From a phage: a stretch of DNA of 64,000 nt. The position numbers were made by a program, and so were the translations under genes. Below are positions 28,919 through 50,109 of the stretch, one piece after another; position 1 is the first letter of the stretch; the number at the start of each line of letters is the position of its first letter. The notes below the pieces were generated by a model. It was not told where the DNA came from. It made no database searches and saw nothing but the letters and a program-made list of their open reading frames with translations. The stretch lies in assembly GCA_025677605.1 (NCBI GenBank), contig GCA_025677605.1_4110.1; one strand, given 5' to 3'.

Positions 28919-29178
28919 CGATCAGTACACCTCAGTGGTTGGGTCATTTGATAAAAGTACAGCTTACCTCTGATTTCCATTAACAACTCGGCTATGACGC
29001 GATTTACTTCTGTCTCTTGATAGTTTGTTCCTAAGAAGACACCCATCTTTAACTCACGATGCATAATCATCTTCTTACTGTGTTGAATTTCTTGGCTGTA
29101 ATAGATTGCATTACGTTTAGGTGAGATTTTTGCTAGTCGCTCGTTATATTCATCTTGACTTAAATTAATCATTTGCAT
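28915..29178 (-). CDS. LGT-motif family small protein
   Basis: 87 aa; VFLGTNYQETEV; N-terminus MQMINLSQDEY. Confidence 0.55.
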   Translation of the reverse strand: MQMINLSQDEYNERLAKISPKRNAIYYSQEIQHSKKMIMHRELKMGVFLGTNYQETEVNRVIAELLMEIRGKLYFYQMTQPLRCTDR

Positions 29179-29393
29179 TTACTTTGGACCTCATTTTGAA
29201 GTGCATTAATGACCTTCAGTACAGCACTCGCTTGATAGTTTGTTCCTAAGACTGAAAGCATCTTGATCTCATTTACTACAATCCACTTATTTGATTGTTC
29301 AATAATGTGACTTTCATAAATGGCCTTGCGTAATGAATAAGTTTTTGCAAGACGTACATAATATTCATCTTTACTTAAATTAATCATTTGCAT
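29169..29393 (-). CDS. LGT-motif family small protein
   Basis: 74 aa; SVLGTNYQASAV; N-terminus MQMINLSKDEY. Confidence 0.55.
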   Translation of the reverse strand: MQMINLSKDEYYVRLAKTYSLRKAIYESHIIEQSNKWIVVNEIKMLSVLGTNYQASAVLKVINALQNEVQSKCK

Positions 29394-29602
29394 TTACTTT
29401 TAACCTCTTTCTGGAGTGCATCAATCCATAGGTCTATATACGTTTGTTGATAGTTTGTGCCTAAGAGTGCCTCTACATAGAGTTCAGCTACCTTTGCGTG
29501 CTTTAGGTCAACAGGGATGCTCTTATCGCTTGATAACATTCTCCTTCTGCTGGTGCATGTTTTCAGAAGCCTGATGTATTCAACACCTTGTAATTTTCTC
29601 AT
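29384..29602 (-). CDS. LGT-motif family small protein
   Basis: 72 aa; ALLGTNYQQTYI. Confidence 0.55.
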   Translation of the reverse strand: MRKLQGVEYIRLLKTCTSRRRMLSSDKSIPVDLKHAKVAELYVEALLGTNYQQTYIDLWIDALQKEVKSKCK

Positions 29603-33540: not shown

Positions 33541-33689
33541 TTTGAATCTCCTAACTTTGTGGACCGTCGCACCATTGCCGCCCTACGAGATACATTATTG
33601 CAGTACTGCTATACTTTGTCAATAGTTTTTTATTAATAGTTTTCACTCCACCAGCAGATAGTTACTCACCGTTATTAACTATATATTTT

Positions 33690-33730
33690 AGATACACCTA
33701 TGCACCCGGTGGGCTAGTTTTTGTCTATGC
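33690..33730 (-). repeat. conserved noncoding element (CCCACCGGGTGC core), copy 1
   Basis: atgcacccggtgggctag; follows a promoter-in-terminator on the minus strand. Confidence 0.5.
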
Positions 33731-33742
33731 GTATATAATAGC

Positions 33743-33774
33743 AAAGGGACTGACCGGAGTCAATCCCTTTTTTT
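33743..33774 (-). terminator. terminator hairpin with embedded -35/-10
   Basis: aaagggactgaccggagtcaatcccttttttt; stem contains TTGACT and is followed by TATTAT on the minus strand. Confidence 0.45.
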
Positions 33775-33785
33775 ATTCTTTTTTG

Positions 33786-36757: not shown

Positions 36758-36800
36758 AGATACACTTATGCACCCTATGGGTCAGTGAGTTATCTCTCAA
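36758..36800 (-). repeat. conserved noncoding element, copy 2
   Basis: atgcaccctatgggtcag then terminator-like hairpin 36816-36846. Confidence 0.45.
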
Positions 36801-36854
36801 TGACTATATAATAGCAAAGGGACTGACTGGAGTCAATCCCTTTTTTAATCTTTT

Positions 36855-37439
36855 TTATCGTGTTATAGTTACGGCTTTTACGTCGCGTTGTTTATAGTAC
36901 TGATTCCAGATATTGCGGGTTAAACCGTAATCAAGTACTTTAATCAGGCCATTGCGATCTTGGCCTATGTTCTGCTTTCTGATATCTCTTATCGTTAGTG
37001 TTGATAAGGTATCATCAACGTGTTGTAGTGCATCAGCGAAATGGTGTTGGCGTTCAATAGTGTTACGTTTGACATTGTACTTTAATTCATTGCAAGCGTT
37101 AACGTGCTTTACACTGCCTTTGCTTGCAGTACTCAAACGATCCATAACAATAAACATATTATCAGGATCGCTTAAATGCATATGCACCTTAGCAAAGTAC
37201 TGTTTAAGGTGAGGGCGGTCATAATCTAAAAAATTCCATACCTTACATTCTGTTTCATTTTGTTCTACGCCAGCGTCACAATTAGCGACCTTAATCACTA
37301 ACCGATCATTTAAAGCGAATACGATACGGGATGATCCGGCCCCGATGATCTCCAGACCAGCCAACCGACAAGCTGTAAGGATCTCTTTGTTAGTTTCCAT
37401 TTCTGCCAGTGTACGGATGAATTTAGTATAATTACGCAT
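36855..37439 (-). CDS. minimal protein kinase-like protein (ePK-like fold, tentative)
   Basis: 194 aa; IGAGSSRIVF (Gly loop), VIKV (Lys), DIRKQNIG (catalytic-loop-like), KVLDYG (DFG-like). Confidence 0.45.
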   Translation of the reverse strand: MRNYTKFIRTLAEMETNKEILTACRLAGLEIIGAGSSRIVFALNDRLVIKVANCDAGVEQNETECKVWNFLDYDRPHLKQYFAKVHMHLSDPDNMFIVMDRLSTASKGSVKHVNACNELKYNVKRNTIERQHHFADALQHVDDTLSTLTIRDIRKQNIGQDRNGLIKVLDYGLTRNIWNQYYKQRDVKAVTITR

Positions 37440-39556: not shown

Positions 39557-39832
39557 TTAAGTATTGTAAATGTCGTGAATAGTGATAAAGTTTTTACGAC
39601 CGTAAACCTGTAAATCAGTATCAATGTAGTGCTTATCAAGTACATCCTCGACGCTTAACGCGGTGTCGTGAATATCTTCATAGAATTGAGGATCTACAAT
39701 CTTGCTTAAGTCATCCGGCGTTAACTTATCGTTAAGCCATTGAACCGCCTGGATATCTGCTTCACGTTTCCAGTCTTGCAGGTTAGTAGTCAGTACTTGC
39801 TCGATTTCGTTAGCTGTCAGTAGAATCCGCAT
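39557..39832 (-). CDS. hypothetical protein
   Basis: 91 aa; ATG 39830-39832. Confidence 0.5.
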   Translation of the reverse strand: MRILLTANEIEQVLTTNLQDWKREADIQAVQWLNDKLTPDDLSKIVDPQFYEDIHDTALSVEDVLDKHYIDTDLQVYGRKNFITIHDIYNT

Positions 39833-39864: not shown

Positions 39865-39892
39865 ATTATACTCGTTTACTTTCTATTGTCAA
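39865..39892 (-). promoter_or_regulatory. sigma70-like promoter (proximal, P2)
   Basis: minus strand TTGACA, 16 nt spacer, TATAAT. Confidence 0.5.
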
Positions 39893-39900
39893 ACTATTTT

Positions 39901-39972
39901 ATCAGGGGAGTTTTTCGTATGTCTTACTCCTGGACTACTTAACGGGGTTACTTGTTTCATTCCCCGTCCTGA
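39901..39972 (-). other. conserved three-stem structured RNA element (leader or small RNA), copy A
   Basis: outer stem ATCAGG/CCTGAT enclosing hairpins GGAGT/ACTCC and ACGGGG/CCCCGT; near-identical copy at 49947-50021. Confidence 0.5.
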
Positions 39973-39980
39973 TGTAAAAC

Positions 39981-40008
39981 ATTATACTTGATTCTAAGTA
40001 CAATGCAA
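39981..40008 (-). promoter_or_regulatory. sigma70-like promoter (distal, P1) reading into structured element
   Basis: minus strand TTGCAT, 16 nt spacer, TATAAT. Confidence 0.5.
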
Positions 40009-40054
40009 GTACTTTTTTAAAAATAGTTTTCAGTACTAGCCACCAGCAAACAAT

Positions 40055-40095
40055 AGATACATTTATGCACCCGGTGGGCTAGTTTTTGTCTATGC
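40055..40095 (-). repeat. conserved noncoding element, copy 3
   Basis: atgcacccggtgggctag; hairpin 40107-40136. Confidence 0.45.
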
Positions 40096-40147
40096 ATATA
40101 TAATAGCAAAGGGACTGACCGGAGTCAATCCCTTTTTTCAATTTATT

Positions 40148-40297
40148 TTATGCCTCGCGAGGGTTGCGATATGTGATAGCGTTCGGGTACATTTGTTTTA
40201 AGTTATTCCACGCCTGGTTAACACTGTATCCGCTGGACCGTATCAGTTGATGCATACCTTTACCCAAAAACGTAACTTCGAAAATGTATTCTTTCAT
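40148..40297 (-). CDS. hypothetical small protein (below ORF-track cutoff)
   Basis: 49 aa MKEYIFEVTFLGKGMHQ...; ATGA overlap with upstream ORF. Confidence 0.35.
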   Translation of the reverse strand: MKEYIFEVTFLGKGMHQLIRSSGYSVNQAWNNLKQMYPNAITYRNPREA

Positions 40298-42799: not shown

Positions 42800-42840
42800 T
42801 TACACTTCCGCACCCTGTGGGCTAGTGAGCTATCTCTCAA
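42800..42840 (-). repeat. conserved noncoding element, copy 4
   Basis: ccgcaccctgtgggctag; hairpin 42859-42886. Confidence 0.45.
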
Positions 42841-43108
42841 TGAATATATAATAGCAAAATGGCTGACCGAAGTCAACCACTTTTTTCATTTATTTTTAGC
42901 TTTTAGAATCGCCGCTTTTCGCGTCATGCCTTGCTTGATGTACTCCTTTACTTTCGCTTTACGTGCTTTCGCTTTATCTGCTTTCGTTTTAGGAGTACTG
43001 TAAATTAAACCGTTAGGATTCATTTAAATCACCATAAAGAATAGATAGGTTACTAACAATGCCGCGATCAATGCACCGATCACCGCCGAACTGTAATAAG
43101 CCAATGAT

Positions 43109-46348: not shown

Positions 46349-46831
46349 TTATGCTTCAACTTTGCGATGAGCTTCGATCCATTCCTCGCGAGTCAATCCG
46401 CTTTCTTTGATAGCATCCAGTACTACGGCAATGCAGTTACCGCGTACTGGTACAGTGTATTCCTCGCCATTATCCAGAACTACCGGCACGCGTTCCTGAA
46501 TCCATTTTTTAGCTTTTACTTCTGGCTTGTCTTCCCCGTATTTCGCTGCCAGGGCTTTACGTGCCATTTCGGTTACTACTTCCAGATCAAGCCCAGCGAC
46601 GGCGGCGTTAATATCTTCAATCGTTTTCTGCAATTCAGCTTCGCGTGCTGCCTTCTCAGCTTCAAGTGCCGCCGCTTTATTAGCTTGTAGTTCTTTCGCT
46701 TCGCTGTACGCAATGTTAAAATTGTTGCGTACTGCTTTCATGGTATCGCTATCCAGTTCAGCCAGGATCTCAGCCGCTACGTTAGTTTCATTTGCTACCA
46801 GTGCTTTGATGAATGATTTTACATTAGCCAT
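46349..46831 (-). CDS. hypothetical Ala/Glu-rich protein (locally higher GC)
   Basis: start at MANVKSF (ATG 46829-46831) behind RBS gaggaa; coiled-coil-like AAALEAEKAAREAELQK. Confidence 0.55.
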   Translation of the reverse strand: MANVKSFIKALVANETNVAAEILAELDSDTMKAVRNNFNIAYSEAKELQANKAAALEAEKAAREAELQKTIEDINAAVAGLDLEVVTEMARKALAAKYGEDKPEVKAKKWIQERVPVVLDNGEEYTVPVRGNCIAVVLDAIKESGLTREEWIEAHRKVEA

Positions 46832-46884
46832 TATATAATTCCTCAATTAAAGTTTAGTTTACGTTTATTAGTGTATCAAAGTTT

Positions 46885-46948
46885 TCTTGACGTGTCCAGT
46901 TTTTCGTTCGACTTACTGGCGGTCTACTTAGTGTTCCCCGTCTTGATG
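46885..46948 (-). other. structured RNA element, diverged copy C
   Basis: CCAGT/ACTGG hairpin and CCCCGTCTTGATG tail; promoter TTGACA, 16 nt spacer, TAGAAT at 46955-46982. Confidence 0.35.
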
Positions 46949-47030
46949 TAATACATTCTACGCTTTTCTTCGGTAATGTCAACTACTTTTTTAAAACTAT
47001 TTTCAAAGTATCTCAGTACTACACCACTAC

Positions 47031-47058
47031 AAAAAAAGCCCACTGTTTAAGGTGGGCT
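47031..47058 (-). terminator. rho-independent terminator
   Basis: same AGCCCAC...GTGGGCT hairpin as 46300-46327. Confidence 0.55.
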
Positions 47059-49203: not shown

Positions 49204-49878
49204 TTAATATTCGATTGATTCTACTACGCCATCAATAACATTGAATTGATATTCGTTACCCTCAATCAGTGCCGTAATGTTTTCAGTAGTGAATTGATCC
49301 TCATATGCATTCTCTAAATCACGGTACAACTTGCGGGATAATTCACGAATAGTTTCAGTGAGTAGTTCCTCAAGCTCATTAACTAACGCTTCTTGTTTTG
49401 CGGTTAAATCAGTGTAAGCCGATTCAATGTACCCGCTTACAGTGTTTTCATGCGAGTAGTTGGAGTGAGAACGCTTTACACTCATTGCCAAATCATCTTC
49501 ATTCAGCAGGTGACGGATTGAGCGATACTTAGTTAATGCTCTAACCTTGCGTAAAAACTTCTCAGCGTCAACGTGGTCAGTACTAATTGATGCACCGTCA
49601 CCCTGCGACCAAAAACCACTGAATTGTATTTCAGCGTCATTAATGCCATATTCCGGTAGTACTGTTTCTTTATAGTATTCAATTTCACTTTCAGAAAAAT
49701 AATCGTCGTTTAAGTTTTTTTCACGTTCCCGAACCAGTTCGATAGCTGACGTTTGTTGTTCTGCGTTCAATTCAGAAAAATCCATAACGAAAGTAGTATT
49801 AGTGACAGTTTTCGCTTTGCAACCCTCATTCAATTCAGAAAAATCCATAACGAAAGTAGTAGTAGTGATAGTTTTCAT
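49204..49878 (-). CDS. hypothetical protein with N-terminal tandem duplication
   Basis: 224 aa; 21-aa unit TTFVMDFSELN repeated twice from a 63-bp direct DNA repeat near 49743-49870. Confidence 0.55.
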   Translation of the reverse strand: MKTITTTTFVMDFSELNEGCKAKTVTNTTFVMDFSELNAEQQTSAIELVREREKNLNDDYFSESEIEYYKETVLPEYGINDAEIQFSGFWSQGDGASISTDHVDAEKFLRKVRALTKYRSIRHLLNEDDLAMSVKRSHSNYSHENTVSGYIESAYTDLTAKQEALVNELEELLTETIRELSRKLYRDLENAYEDQFTTENITALIEGNEYQFNVIDGVVESIEY

Positions 49879-49946
49879 TTTGTAACTCTCATTCAGTAGT
49901 TGATGTAAGTATTATACGCTTTTAAAAACAATTGTCAAACTATTTT

Positions 49947-50021
49947 ATCAGGGGAGTTTTTCGTGTGCCTTACTCCTGGGCTACTTAACGGGGAGTTACT
50001 TATTTCGTTCCCCGTCCTGAT
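49947..50021 (-). other. conserved three-stem structured RNA element, copy B
   Basis: near-identical to 39901-39972; flanked by P1 (TTGCAA, 16 nt spacer, TATAAT) and P2 (TTGACA, 16 nt spacer, TATAAT). Confidence 0.5.
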
Positions 50022-50109
50022 GTAAAACATTATACGCCTTTAAACATAGTTTGCAAGTACTTTTTATCAAATAGTTTTCAGTACTGGCATTGTACTTAAT
50101 CACTTTACT

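What the first reader, a model, noticed from the sequence alone, without database searches (positions are those of the whole stretch)
39865..40008. Conserved three-stem RNA element sandwiched between tandem promoters (second copy at 49947-50021)
In two loci (39901-39972 and 49947-50021, about 90 percent identical) and one diverged locus (46885-46948) the simple 5' hairpin is replaced by a 72-75 nt element that folds as outer stem AUCAGG/CCUGAU around two hairpins (GGAGU/ACUCC and ACGGGG/CCCCGU). It starts at the predicted +1 of promoter P1 and is followed by a second promoter P2 for the downstream gene. The downstream genes are unrelated, so the element is a mobile regulatory module: either a small RNA or a regulatory leader.
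Basis: partly seen in the sequence, partly recalled or inferred. Interest (0 to 1): 0.6.

Follow-up and report, generated by a model that had tools for sequence, protein, structure and literature searches.

The report
Conserved pseudoknot RNA between early promoters

Summary
The window is an Asteriusvirus (PBECO4/121Q-like jumbo coliphage). Genes and promoters here lie on the minus strand. Three loci (39973-39901, 50021-49947, diverged 46947-46875) carry promoter P1, then a 73-75 nt folded element starting at +1. In the first two a consensus promoter P2 follows; in the third P2 is degenerate. The downstream genes are unrelated.

The three-stem model is incomplete. The linker 5' of hairpin 2 pairs with the loop of hairpin 2, giving an H-type pseudoknot with an A-rich third strand.

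The core recurs in the T7 A1 transcript, ending at the -35 of A2. The T7 interval matches 488 Autographiviridae records. The core also occurs in RaK2-like jumbo phages, Vequintavirinae and Justusliebigvirus. All four helices show compensatory changes. A model trained only on T7-like sequences finds exactly the three window copies.

There is no Rfam match. A model of the core finds nothing in the HK022 putL region, the ToxI repeats, or the E. coli rpsM and rrnB leaders. BLAST finds no copy in 5,426 E. coli genomes.

Function is inferred only. My best guess is a self-contained RNA that binds a host factor and is made in bulk early in infection. A put-like action in cis on RNA polymerase is the close rival.

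The parts
40108..40135 (-). Intrinsic terminator of the upstream unit, part of a 96-nt module repeated four times. P1 of copy c1 follows it.
   Evidence: (family D9)
40009..40037 (-). A/T-rich conserved stretch upstream of P1 (AGTACTGAAAACTATTTTTAAAAAAGTAC), shared by the roughly 30 early promoters of the region
39981..40008 (-). Promoter P1 of copy c1: -35 TTGCAT 40008-40003, 16-nt spacer, -10 TATAAT 39986-39981
   Evidence: The -35 has only 3 of 6 consensus matches, so the scan did not list it. It belongs to promoter family D1.
39901..39973 (-). Copy c1 of the structured RNA (73 nt), starting at the predicted +1. Closing stem 39973-39968 with 39906-39901. Hairpin 1 39967-39962 with 39947-39942. 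Pseudoknot stem S1 39938-39933 with 39923-39917. Hairpin 2 (S2) 39930-39926 with 39911-39907. A-rich strand 39916-39912.
39865..39892 (-). Promoter P2 of copy c1 (TTGACA-16-TATAAT, 12 of 12)
39557..39832 (-). Downstream gene of c1: 91 aa, PHROG 14947, unknown function, 98% identical to muut_139 of a Justusliebigvirus
50029..50056 (-). Promoter P1 of copy c2 (TTGCAA-16-TATAAT)
49947..50021 (-). Copy c2 of the structured RNA (75 nt). Covariance-model core at 49989-49951. The middle pair of S1 is C-G here, against U-A in c1.
49911..49938 (-). Promoter P2 of copy c2 (TTGACA-16-TATAAT, 12 of 12)
49204..49878 (-). Downstream gene of c2: 224 aa, PHROG 5162, unknown function
47037..47058 (-). Intrinsic terminator upstream of P1 of copy c3
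46955..46982 (-). Promoter P1 of copy c3 (TTGACA-16-TAGAAT)
46875..46947 (-). Copy c3, diverged. The pseudoknot core at 46932-46894 is intact, with S2 as CCAG/CUGG and S1 as GAC/GUC. Hairpin 1 is lost. Closing pairs are GACG/CGUC and AUCAAG/UUUGAU. Only a degenerate P2 follows.
46349..46831 (-). Downstream gene of c3: 160 aa, PHROG 27871, unknown function

Best explanation
SHOWN. The element is a structured RNA domain encoded at the 5' end of transcripts predicted from P1. P1 is a strong sigma-70 early promoter, so the host RNA polymerase would make the transcript. The promoters and +1 are predicted in this window; the equivalent T3 promoters are annotated. The domain has a closing stem that sequesters the 5' end, a variable hairpin, and an H-type pseudoknot. 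Reading 5' to 3', the pseudoknot is: S1 GUAGNC, then S2 (GGAG or CCUG), then (A)UAA, then S1' GN'C..AC, then an A-rich strand GAAAA(A), then S2'. The window copies belong to an uncatalogued RNA family. Its other members lie in the A1-A2 interval of T7-like phages, in the early leader of SP6-like and Aeromonas podophages, in RaK2-like jumbo phages, and in rV5-like and phAPEC8-like phages.

INFERRED. The fold itself is the functional product. It is a compact, nuclease-resistant RNA made in large amounts in the first minutes of infection, and it binds a conserved host (gamma-proteobacterial) factor. P2 is there so that the downstream gene does not depend on the P1 transcript. The RNA would be left as a stable 5' fragment after cleavage in the A/U-rich stretch that follows the closing stem; in T7 it would be released with the leader cut off at the R0.3 RNase III site. 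The partner is unknown.
For: Structure
- 97.5% of cells are paired in S1 and S2 across 28 diverse sequences, against 81.5% in shuffles and 15-37% when partners are slid.
- The middle pair of S1 is seen as A-U, U-A, C-G and G-C, with one mismatch in 28. These changes arose at least five separate times: c1 against c2 against c3, L006 against L044, L197 against other T3-likes, and L027 against LIMEzero.
- The neighbouring S1 pair changes C-G to U-A in Entb_48 and in RaK2.
- In T7-likes all four helices covary, with 11 pairs showing double changes and 0 of 500 shuffles as high.
- RNAalifold independently predicts the closing stem plus S2.
- G-U pairs occur only on the strand transcribed from P1.

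Family
- A model trained only on podophage sequences finds exactly the three window copies and nothing else.
- c3 and a T7-like phage (L005) are identical at 32 of 36 core positions, and two of the four differences are compensatory.

The RNA, not the downstream gene, is what is conserved
- Copy number is one per genome in the T7-like loci and in the rV5-like and phAPEC8-like phages, and two to three in Asteriusvirus.
- The downstream genes are unrelated.
- The loops are almost invariant while the promoter spacers are randomised.
- In T7 only A1 transcripts carry it, whereas the functional boxA antiterminator lies after A3 (PMC3709561). This argues against a general cis-acting role.
- No copy occurs in 5,426 complete E. 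coli genomes, so it is confined to virulent phages.
Against: - No terminator or defined 3' end follows the element, so a discrete small RNA is not shown.
- In SP6-like phages it is simply part of the only early leader, with no P2 (L027, L206; in LIMEzero a second promoter is annotated).
- No partner is identified. It shows no similarity to known decoy or antitoxin RNAs: ToxI is not matched.
- The position at the very 5' end and directly after a promoter fits a cis-acting role equally well.
- Most T7-like sequences were first retrieved with a pattern derived from the window copies. The invariance of UAAGUAG, UAAG and ACGAAAA is therefore partly an ascertainment effect. Members found by BLAST instead (KpV71, EcoDS1, ZG49, MJG, LIMEzero, Entb_48, RaK2) do vary at some of these positions.
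Confidence: 0.35

Rival explanations
1. It is a cis-acting modifier of the transcribing host RNA polymerase. The nascent RNA folds, stays bound to the polymerase that made it, and suppresses pausing or termination. This would resemble HK022 put RNA, or an accessory to the boxA/Nus complex. P1-initiated polymerases would then read through downstream terminators while P2-initiated ones would not.
For: - Like putL it is about 73 nt, starts at +1 to +3 of an early sigma-70 promoter, has two arms and probably an A-rich minor-groove strand, and needs only host polymerase (PMC9378689).
- It occurs only in transcripts made by host polymerase.
- In SP6-like and Aeromonas podophages boxA follows within 23-50 nt, and in most T7, T3 and K1F-like phages within 120-400 nt.
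- T7 boxA is a functional antiterminator (PMC3709561).
- Copies c1 and c3 sit directly after a terminator, and further terminators lie downstream.
Against: - No sequence or model similarity to putL (best 6.3 bits).
- No boxA in the window or in any myovirus, Drulisvirus or Limelightvirus copy.
- A processivity element would be expected downstream of all the tandem promoters, as boxA is. Here A2, A3 and P2 transcripts lack it.
- The downstream operons are not conserved.
Confidence: 0.25
2. It is only a 5' stabiliser or insulator: an elaborate version of the simple 5' hairpin carried by the other early transcripts. It would protect the 5' end from RppH and RNase E, or stop backtracking of P1 polymerases as they run into P2.
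For: - It replaces the simple +6 hairpin (GGGGAGAA...UUCUCCCC) found after about 30 sister promoters.
- In every myovirus and SP6-like copy the closing stem pairs the first nucleotides of the transcript.
Against: - A plain hairpin does this job at the other roughly 30 promoters.
- It does not explain near-invariant loops and a covarying pseudoknot across four phage families.
- In T7, T3 and K1F-like phages the element starts about 40-55 nt into the transcript, behind a separate 5' hairpin.
Confidence: 0.15
3. It is a ligand-binding aptamer, acting as a riboswitch or as an RNA sponge. The 33-nt core has the same topology and loop lengths as small H-type pseudoknot aptamers such as preQ1-I.
For: - The compact pseudoknot with an A-rich third strand and highly conserved unpaired bases is typical of such aptamers (my own knowledge; anatomy).
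Against: - No Rfam riboswitch family matches even at E up to 10.
- There is no expression platform: no terminator and no ribosome-binding-site sequestration.
- P2 bypasses it.
Confidence: 0.05
4. There is no RNA function. The conservation would reflect DNA: an UP-element or protein site for P2, or a recombination scar left when a gene between two promoter cassettes was deleted.
For: - ACGAAAAAC lies in the UP-element zone of A2 in T7 (sequence).
- Promoter cassettes are clearly shuffled in this genome.
Against: - Four interleaved helices with compensatory changes, and strand-specific G-U pairs, are not explained by a DNA site.
- The distance to the next -35 varies from 0 to 36 nt, and some copies have no P2.
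- The element is far better conserved than the promoter spacers.
Confidence: 0.03

Closest known systems
The A1-A2 inter-promoter region of phage T7 and T3 early DNA, and its equivalents in other Autographiviridae
   Same: The core sequence and all helices are the same. It has the same place in the transcript of the first of several tandem host-polymerase promoters, and the element ends at or near the -35 of the next promoter.
   Different: In T7-likes the 5' strand of the closing helix lies inside the loop of hairpin 1, giving a double pseudoknot, and a separate 5' hairpin precedes the element. In the window the closing stem is outermost and starts at +1. I found no paper or Rfam entry that describes this T7 region as a structured RNA. 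That covers only the library searched.
HK022 put antiterminator RNA (putL, putR)
   Same: About 70 nt, two arms, an A-rich or minor-groove triplex, immediately downstream of an early sigma-70 promoter of a coliphage, and acting without phage proteins (PMC9378689).
   Different: No sequence or model similarity. The topology differs: an H-type pseudoknot plus a closing stem. The window element is found in virulent phages, and it is placed upstream rather than downstream of the other tandem promoters. Binding to polymerase is untested.
PeSL cassettes of T4-type phages (promoter-early stem-loop modules that mediate modular shuffling)
   Same: Repeated early-promoter-plus-hairpin modules flank small unrelated ORFs. 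They appear to be the points where genes are swapped within and between phages (PMC2839356, PMC4122927).
   Different: PeSLs are simple terminator/promoter composites defined at the DNA level. Here a specific folded RNA with conserved loops and a pseudoknot is embedded between two promoters and is conserved far beyond one phage group.
Type III antitoxin RNAs (ToxI) and the phage pseudo-ToxI mimics
   Same: A small pseudoknot RNA. There is a precedent, from my own knowledge of the phage PhiTE work, for a phage expressing such an RNA to neutralise a host system. ToxI is common on small plasmids of the same hosts.
   Different: The model of the core does not match ToxI. The window element is a single unit, not a tandem array. 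No similar sequence occurs in 5,426 E. coli genomes and their plasmids.
Small H-type pseudoknot aptamers and leader pseudoknots (preQ1-I riboswitch, T4 gene 32 leader pseudoknot)
   Same: Same topology and similar stem and loop lengths, an A-rich third strand, and a position in a 5' leader (my own knowledge).
   Different: No Rfam match, no expression platform, and not tied to one downstream gene.

Membership tests
T7-group early-leader pseudoknot RNA (uncatalogued family defined here) | Core sequence and S2 helix scored by a covariance model built without the window or any myovirus sequence | tested here: met
   Model R2, trained on 20 Autographiviridae sequences, gives 35.0, 29.7 and 26.8 bits (E 2e-7, 5e-6, 3e-5) for c3, c1 and c2, and nothing else in the window at E up to 1. 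Caveat: most training sequences were first fished out with a pattern taken from the window copies.
T7-group early-leader pseudoknot RNA (uncatalogued family defined here) | Pseudoknot stem S1, pairing the linker 5' of S2 with the loop of S2, kept through compensatory change | tested here: met
   c1 has GUC/GAC, c2 GCC/GGC and c3 GAC/GUC. Across the family the middle pair is A-U 16, C-G 5, U-A 5, G-C 1 and unpaired 1.
T7-group early-leader pseudoknot RNA (uncatalogued family defined here) | A closing helix that pairs a segment upstream of the core with the 0-3 nt-distant segment after S2 | tested here: met
   AUCAGG/CCUGAU in c1 and c2; GACG/CGUC plus AUCAAG/UUUGAU in c3. Fifteen lineages have different sequences here (combined p about 4e-6). 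RNAalifold predicts this helix in T7-likes.
T7-group early-leader pseudoknot RNA (uncatalogued family defined here) | Location in the transcript of a sigma-70 early promoter, usually followed by a second promoter | tested here: met
   for the window. Annotated promoters in T3, EcoDS1, LIMElight and LIMEzero.
HK022 put antiterminator RNA | Sequence or structure homology to putL or putR | tested here: not met
   The best R1 hit in the HK022 PL/putL region is 6.3 bits, E about 1. The putL sequence, read, shows no resemblance. putR lies outside the stretch fetched and was not searched.
HK022 put antiterminator RNA | Binds the beta' zinc-binding domain of RNA polymerase and suppresses pausing and termination in cis | not testable with these tools
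   Needs in vitro transcription or cryo-EM.
Any Rfam 15 family (riboswitches, ribozymes, sRNAs, leaders) | Covariance-model score at or near the gathering threshold | tested here: not met
   No hit at gathering threshold in the window. Only chance-level hits at E of 4 or more around c1. None at E up to 1 in the T7, T3, K1F-like, SP6-like and Aeromonas-phage leaders.
tRNA or tmRNA | Cloverleaf recognised by ARAGORN | tested here: not met
   0 genes in the window.
Type III antitoxin ToxI | Similarity to the 36-nt ToxI repeat and arrangement as a tandem array | tested here: not met
   R1 has no hit on the toxI repeats of pECA1039. The phage copies are single units.
boxA/Nus antitermination leader (rrn-type, as in T7) | boxA (GCUCUUUAACAA) downstream of the element | tested here: not met
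   No match with one mismatch or fewer on the minus strand of the window. None within 600 nt in any myovirus copy. It is present in most T7, T3, K1F-like and SP6-like copies.
PeSL-type promoter cassette | Repeated early promoter plus stem-loop flanking variable small ORFs, with exchange at the cassette | tested here: inconclusive
   About 30 promoter-plus-hairpin repeats are present. The module plus gene is shared with phage muut at 98% amino-acid identity. Recombination end-points were not mapped, and PeSLs were defined in T4-type phages.

The most novel reading that the evidence does not exclude
This is a new class of phage RNA that acts directly on core host machinery. The most exciting version is a factor-independent RNA that reprograms E. 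coli RNA polymerase (anti-pausing or antitermination), or that blocks a central RNA-decay or defence factor. It would be conserved from T7 to 350-kb jumbo phages and would have gone unnoticed in the most studied promoter region in molecular biology.
Probability: 0.3. Interest if true: 0.9.

Novelty: new variant of a known kind. Interest (0 to 1): 0.72.

Why it matters
- T7 promoter A1 and its downstream DNA are among the most used templates in transcription research. A covarying double-pseudoknot RNA in the A1-A2 interval, shared with four otherwise unrelated groups of coliphages, would be a new and widely conserved player in the first minute of infection.
- Its sequence conservation across phages that share almost no proteins points to a host target. 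It may therefore reveal a host weak point that many virulent phages exploit.
- It is directly testable in T7 with point and compensatory mutants.
- It gives a concrete reason for the long-known but unexplained tandem arrangement of early promoters.
- It also needs to be kept in mind when these promoter regions are used as 'neutral' parts in expression constructs.

Tried and rejected
- Rfam at gathering and at permissive thresholds on the window and on six podophage leaders: nothing.
- tRNA/tmRNA scan: nothing.
- Coding potential: c1 has an ATG-led 23-codon frame inside the element, but c2 has ACG at that position, so it is not conserved (sequence).
This scan was too loose to be useful.
- Metagenome scan: only phage contexts of the same kinds, plus chance hits.
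- BLAST against 5,426 complete E. coli genomes: no match.
- HK022 put: no similarity.
- Ribosomal protein S4 site (alpha-operon leader pseudoknot) and the rrnB P1-P2 leader and boxB: no model hit. Only boxA matches by BLAST. An apparent likeness between the first part of K1F-like A1 leaders and the rrnB P1 leader was not significant.
- ToxI antitoxin: my remembered 36-mer was confirmed exactly, but the model does not match it.
- boxA dependence: rejected, because many lineages have the element without boxA.
- A second copy between A2 and A3 of T7-likes: none.
- Literature searches for a described T7 A1-A2 RNA structure found nothing relevant.

Full report
**Where we are.** The 800 bp around the finding are 98% identical to Escherichia phage A4 and 88-92% identical to PBECO4, 121Q, G17 and other Asteriusvirus jumbo phages. 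In G17 the region lies about 7 kb from the left end of the record; the direct terminal repeat is annotated over the match in the relative vB_Ec-M-J. All genes between 33 and 53 kb are small, of unknown function, and on the minus strand. About 30 copies of one strong sigma-70 promoter type also lie on the minus strand. Each is normally followed at about +6 by a simple hairpin, GGGGAGAA...UUCUCCCC.

**The observation.** Read on the minus strand, locus c1 is laid out as follows:
- terminator 40135-40108;
- A/T-rich tract;
- P1: TTGCAT 40008-40003, 16-nt spacer, TATAAT 39986-39981;
- predicted +1 at A39973. I placed this by analogy with T7 A1, whose transcript starts AUCGAG 7 nt after its -10. That start is from my own knowledge;
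- 73-nt element, 39973-39901;
- AAAAUAGU linker;
- P2: TTGACA-16-TATAAT, 39892-39865;
- ATG at 39832.

Locus c2 (element 50021-49947) is built the same way. Locus c3 (46947-46875) is a diverged copy without hairpin 1 and with only a degenerate P2.

The c3 fold is not significant. Between c1 and c2 the element differs at five positions plus a 2-nt insertion that lengthens hairpin 1. The 16-nt spacers of both promoters are essentially unrelated. The three downstream proteins belong to three different PHROG families of unknown function. The strand is minus, and c1 starts one base earlier than stated.

**A fourth helix.** Two of the five c1/c2 substitutions are U to C in the linker just 5' of hairpin 2 (GUC to GCC) and A to G in the loop of hairpin 2 (GAC to GGC). 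These two triplets are complementary in each copy, and c3 has GAC and GUC. The linker therefore pairs with the loop of hairpin 2, which makes an H-type pseudoknot. Reading 5' to 3', it runs:
- S1a, GU-A-GNC;
- two linker bases;
- (A)UAA;
- S1b, GN'C-xy-AC;
- an A-rich strand, GAAAA(A);
- S2b.

The A-rich strand is placed to lie in the minor groove of S1, as in many small pseudoknots. That last point is inference.

**Relatives.**
- BLAST with the 86-nt element finds two copies in each of about 40 Asteriusvirus genomes. It also finds one copy, at 85-93% identity, in Justusliebigvirus (EmilieFrey, muut, outra) and in Vequintavirinae (A73, W70, A7_1, A5-4). These are unrelated myoviruses of about 140 kb. 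Each copy again has the P1-element-P2 layout.
- In muut the downstream gene is 98% identical to the window's 91-aa gene.
- A pattern made only of the unpaired conserved bases then retrieved T7 itself and many T7-like contigs. In T7 the core lies in the A1 transcript and ends at the -35 of A2.
- BLAST with the T7 interval matches 488 Autographiviridae records from phages of Escherichia, Klebsiella, Salmonella, Yersinia, Enterobacter, Citrobacter, Serratia, Pantoea and Hafnia.
- Further BLAST steps added SP6-like phages (LIMEzero, Entb_48, L027), an Aeromonas phage (MJG), and RaK2-like jumbo phages (RaK2, K64-1, Munch, Hallingskeid).
- In T3, EcoDS1 and LIMElight the depositors' own promoter annotation brackets the element. 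In LIMEzero a second promoter is annotated further downstream, over the boxA-like sequence.

**Is it RNA structure?**
- On 28 diverse cores, 97.5% of cells in S1 and S2 are paired. Shuffles give 81.5% and slid partners give 15-37%.
- The middle pair of S1 occurs as A-U, U-A, C-G and G-C, with one mismatch in 28.
- S2 occurs as CCUG/CAGG, GGAG/CUCC, CCAG/CUGG and CUUG/CAAG.
- The outer pair of the 3-bp part of S1 changes C-G to U-A in Entb_48 and, independently, in RaK2.
- In 26 T7-like sequences four helices are supported. Eleven pairs show double changes, and 0 of 500 shuffles score as high.
- One of those helices pairs the loop of hairpin 1 with the bases just after S2. It reads GUCAA/UUGAC in T7, GUCAUC/GAUGAC in K1F-likes, GUCAGA/UCUGAC, GUCGGU/ACCGAC, GAUUAG/CUAAUC and GCUAA/UUAGC. 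RNAalifold predicts this helix together with S2 without my input.
A closing helix with a different sequence is present in every lineage looked at (combined p about 4e-6).
- In myoviruses and SP6-like phages the 5' strand of this helix lies 5' of hairpin 1, giving a nested three-way junction. In T7-likes it lies inside the loop of hairpin 1, giving a double pseudoknot.
- G-U pairs appear only on the strand transcribed from P1, so the RNA is the sense transcript.
The support comes from the distant relatives.

**Membership.** A model of the core finds exactly three copies in the window and one per T7-like locus. A second model, trained only on podophage sequences, again finds just c3, c1 and c2 (E 2e-7 to 3e-5). 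The caveat is that most podophage sequences were first retrieved with a pattern derived from the window. The near-invariance of UAAGUAG, UAAG and ACGAAAA is therefore partly ascertainment. The members found by BLAST do vary there: UGAGUAG, AAAGUAG, UCAGUAG, UAAA, AUGAAAA, ACGAACA and ACGAAGU. Directly, c3 and the T7-like L005 agree at 32 of 36 core positions, and two of the four differences are compensatory.

**What it is not.**
- No Rfam family.
- Not a tRNA.
- Not coding, because the ATG in c1 is ACG in c2.
- Not present in 5,426 complete E. coli genomes.
- Not found in the bacterial-genome matches listed, apart from one phage-like contig.
- Not similar to HK022 putL, to the S4-binding leader of the alpha operon, or to the rrnB leader.
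- Not similar to the ToxI antitoxin, whose sequence I confirmed on 75 enterobacterial plasmids.

**Context clues to function.**
- (a) The element is always downstream of a strong sigma-70 early promoter, so it would be made only by host polymerase.
- (b) It is at the very 5' end in myoviruses and SP6-like phages. In T7, T3 and K1F-like phages it lies behind a separate 5' hairpin.
- (c) A second promoter usually follows at a variable distance of 0-36 nt. In T7, T3, KpV71 and MJG the 3' strand of the closing helix is the -35 hexamer of that promoter.
- (d) boxA follows within 23-50 nt in the SP6-like L027 and Entb_48 and in the Aeromonas phage MJG. LIMEzero has only a variant boxA. In most T7-likes boxA follows within 120-400 nt. 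It is absent from Drulisvirus, Limelightvirus and every myovirus copy. T7 boxA is a functional antiterminator (PMC3709561).
- (e) There is one copy per genome, two to three in Asteriusvirus, whatever the genome size. The downstream genes are unrelated.
- (f) In T7 only A1 transcripts carry it.

**Explanation.** The structure and the family are shown. The function is inferred.
- Points (e) and (f), and the presence of P2, fit best an RNA whose fold is itself the product. On this view it is an abundant early RNA that binds a host factor, and P2 uncouples the downstream gene from it. I give this 0.35.
- Points (a), (b) and (d), and the likeness in size and position to putL (PMC9378689), support a cis-acting polymerase modifier. 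I give this 0.25.
- A mere 5' stabiliser gets 0.15. It does not explain conserved loops and a pseudoknot when a plain hairpin serves about 30 sister promoters.
- A ligand aptamer gets 0.05. It lacks any expression platform.
- A DNA-level explanation gets 0.03. It is contradicted by the interleaved covarying helices.

**Novelty.** Leader RNAs and promoter cassettes are known kinds, for example put (PMC9378689) and the PeSLs of T4-type phages (PMC2839356, PMC4122927). This particular fold and family are not in Rfam 15. I could not find them described in the searchable literature, including for T7. I therefore rate it a new variant of a known kind. There is a real chance, about 0.3, that its mechanism is new.

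Noticed in passing
window 33000-53200, minus strand: About 30 copies of one strong sigma-70 early promoter (AAAAAGTACTTGCA or TTGACA, 16-17 nt, TATAAT). Each is followed by the initial transcribed sequence CAUC(A/G)AG and a GGGGAGAA...UUCUCCCC 5' hairpin, then a small ORF. The start AUC(A/G)AG resembles the T7 A1 start AUCGAGAGGG.
   Followed up: partly
window 33689-33784, 36762-36857, 40054-40149, 42802-42897: A 96-nt module repeated four times. It contains a 12-bp terminator hairpin (AAAGGGAYTGAC...GTCAGTCCCTTT) and a conserved GCACCCGGTGGGCTAG segment. Each copy is placed between a gene end and the next early promoter.
   Followed up: no
window 49750-49880: The 5' end of gene 49204-49878 carries a tandem duplication of about 63 nt (TTCAATTCAGAAAAATCCATAACGAAAGTAGTA.TAGTGA.AGTTTTC, twice). 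The protein therefore starts with a repeated MKTITTTTFVMDFSELN-like segment.
   Followed up: no
window 57647-63564, plus strand: Six copies, about 1.2 kb apart, of a promoter plus ribosome-binding site plus conserved N-terminus (ATGTTACCTTTTGTTAGAATGTT, MLPFVRM...). This is a paralogous gene family on the opposite strand to the early genes.
   Followed up: no
window 39557-39832 and L003 2650-2925 (phage muut): A 91-aa protein of unknown function is 98% identical between this Asteriusvirus and a Justusliebigvirus. The two phages are otherwise unrelated. In both, the gene lies directly behind the P1-element-P2 module, which suggests exchange by recombination at the module.
   Followed up: partly
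L046 (T7), L173 (T3), L167/L171/L172 (K1F-like), L204-L206, L027: An extended boxA, (C/T)GCTCTTTAACAATCTGG, is conserved downstream of the early promoters in most Studiervirinae, SP6-like and Aeromonas podophages. It is absent from Drulisvirus and Limelightvirus.
   Followed up: partly
L167 about 360-410 against L208 215-260 (E. coli rrnB P1 leader): The first 50 nt of K1F-like A1 leaders (GACACGGCAACAACCGG...GACGCCGGGUCA) look like the rrnB P1 leader (GACACGGAACAACGG...ACGCCGCCGGGUCA). BLAST did not find this significant; only boxA matched.
   Followed up: partly
plasmids collection, e.g. NC_011767.1 1714-1935: The exact 36-nt ToxI repeat of Pectobacterium pECA1039 is present on 75 small, mostly mobilizable plasmids of E. 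coli, Salmonella, Klebsiella and others. In several records it is annotated as a 'hypothetical protein'.
   Followed up: no
window 56004-56476 and 29013-29425: Further local direct-repeat families: three 97-nt units spaced 188 nt apart, and two 198-nt units spaced 215 nt apart. Their nature is unknown.
   Followed up: no
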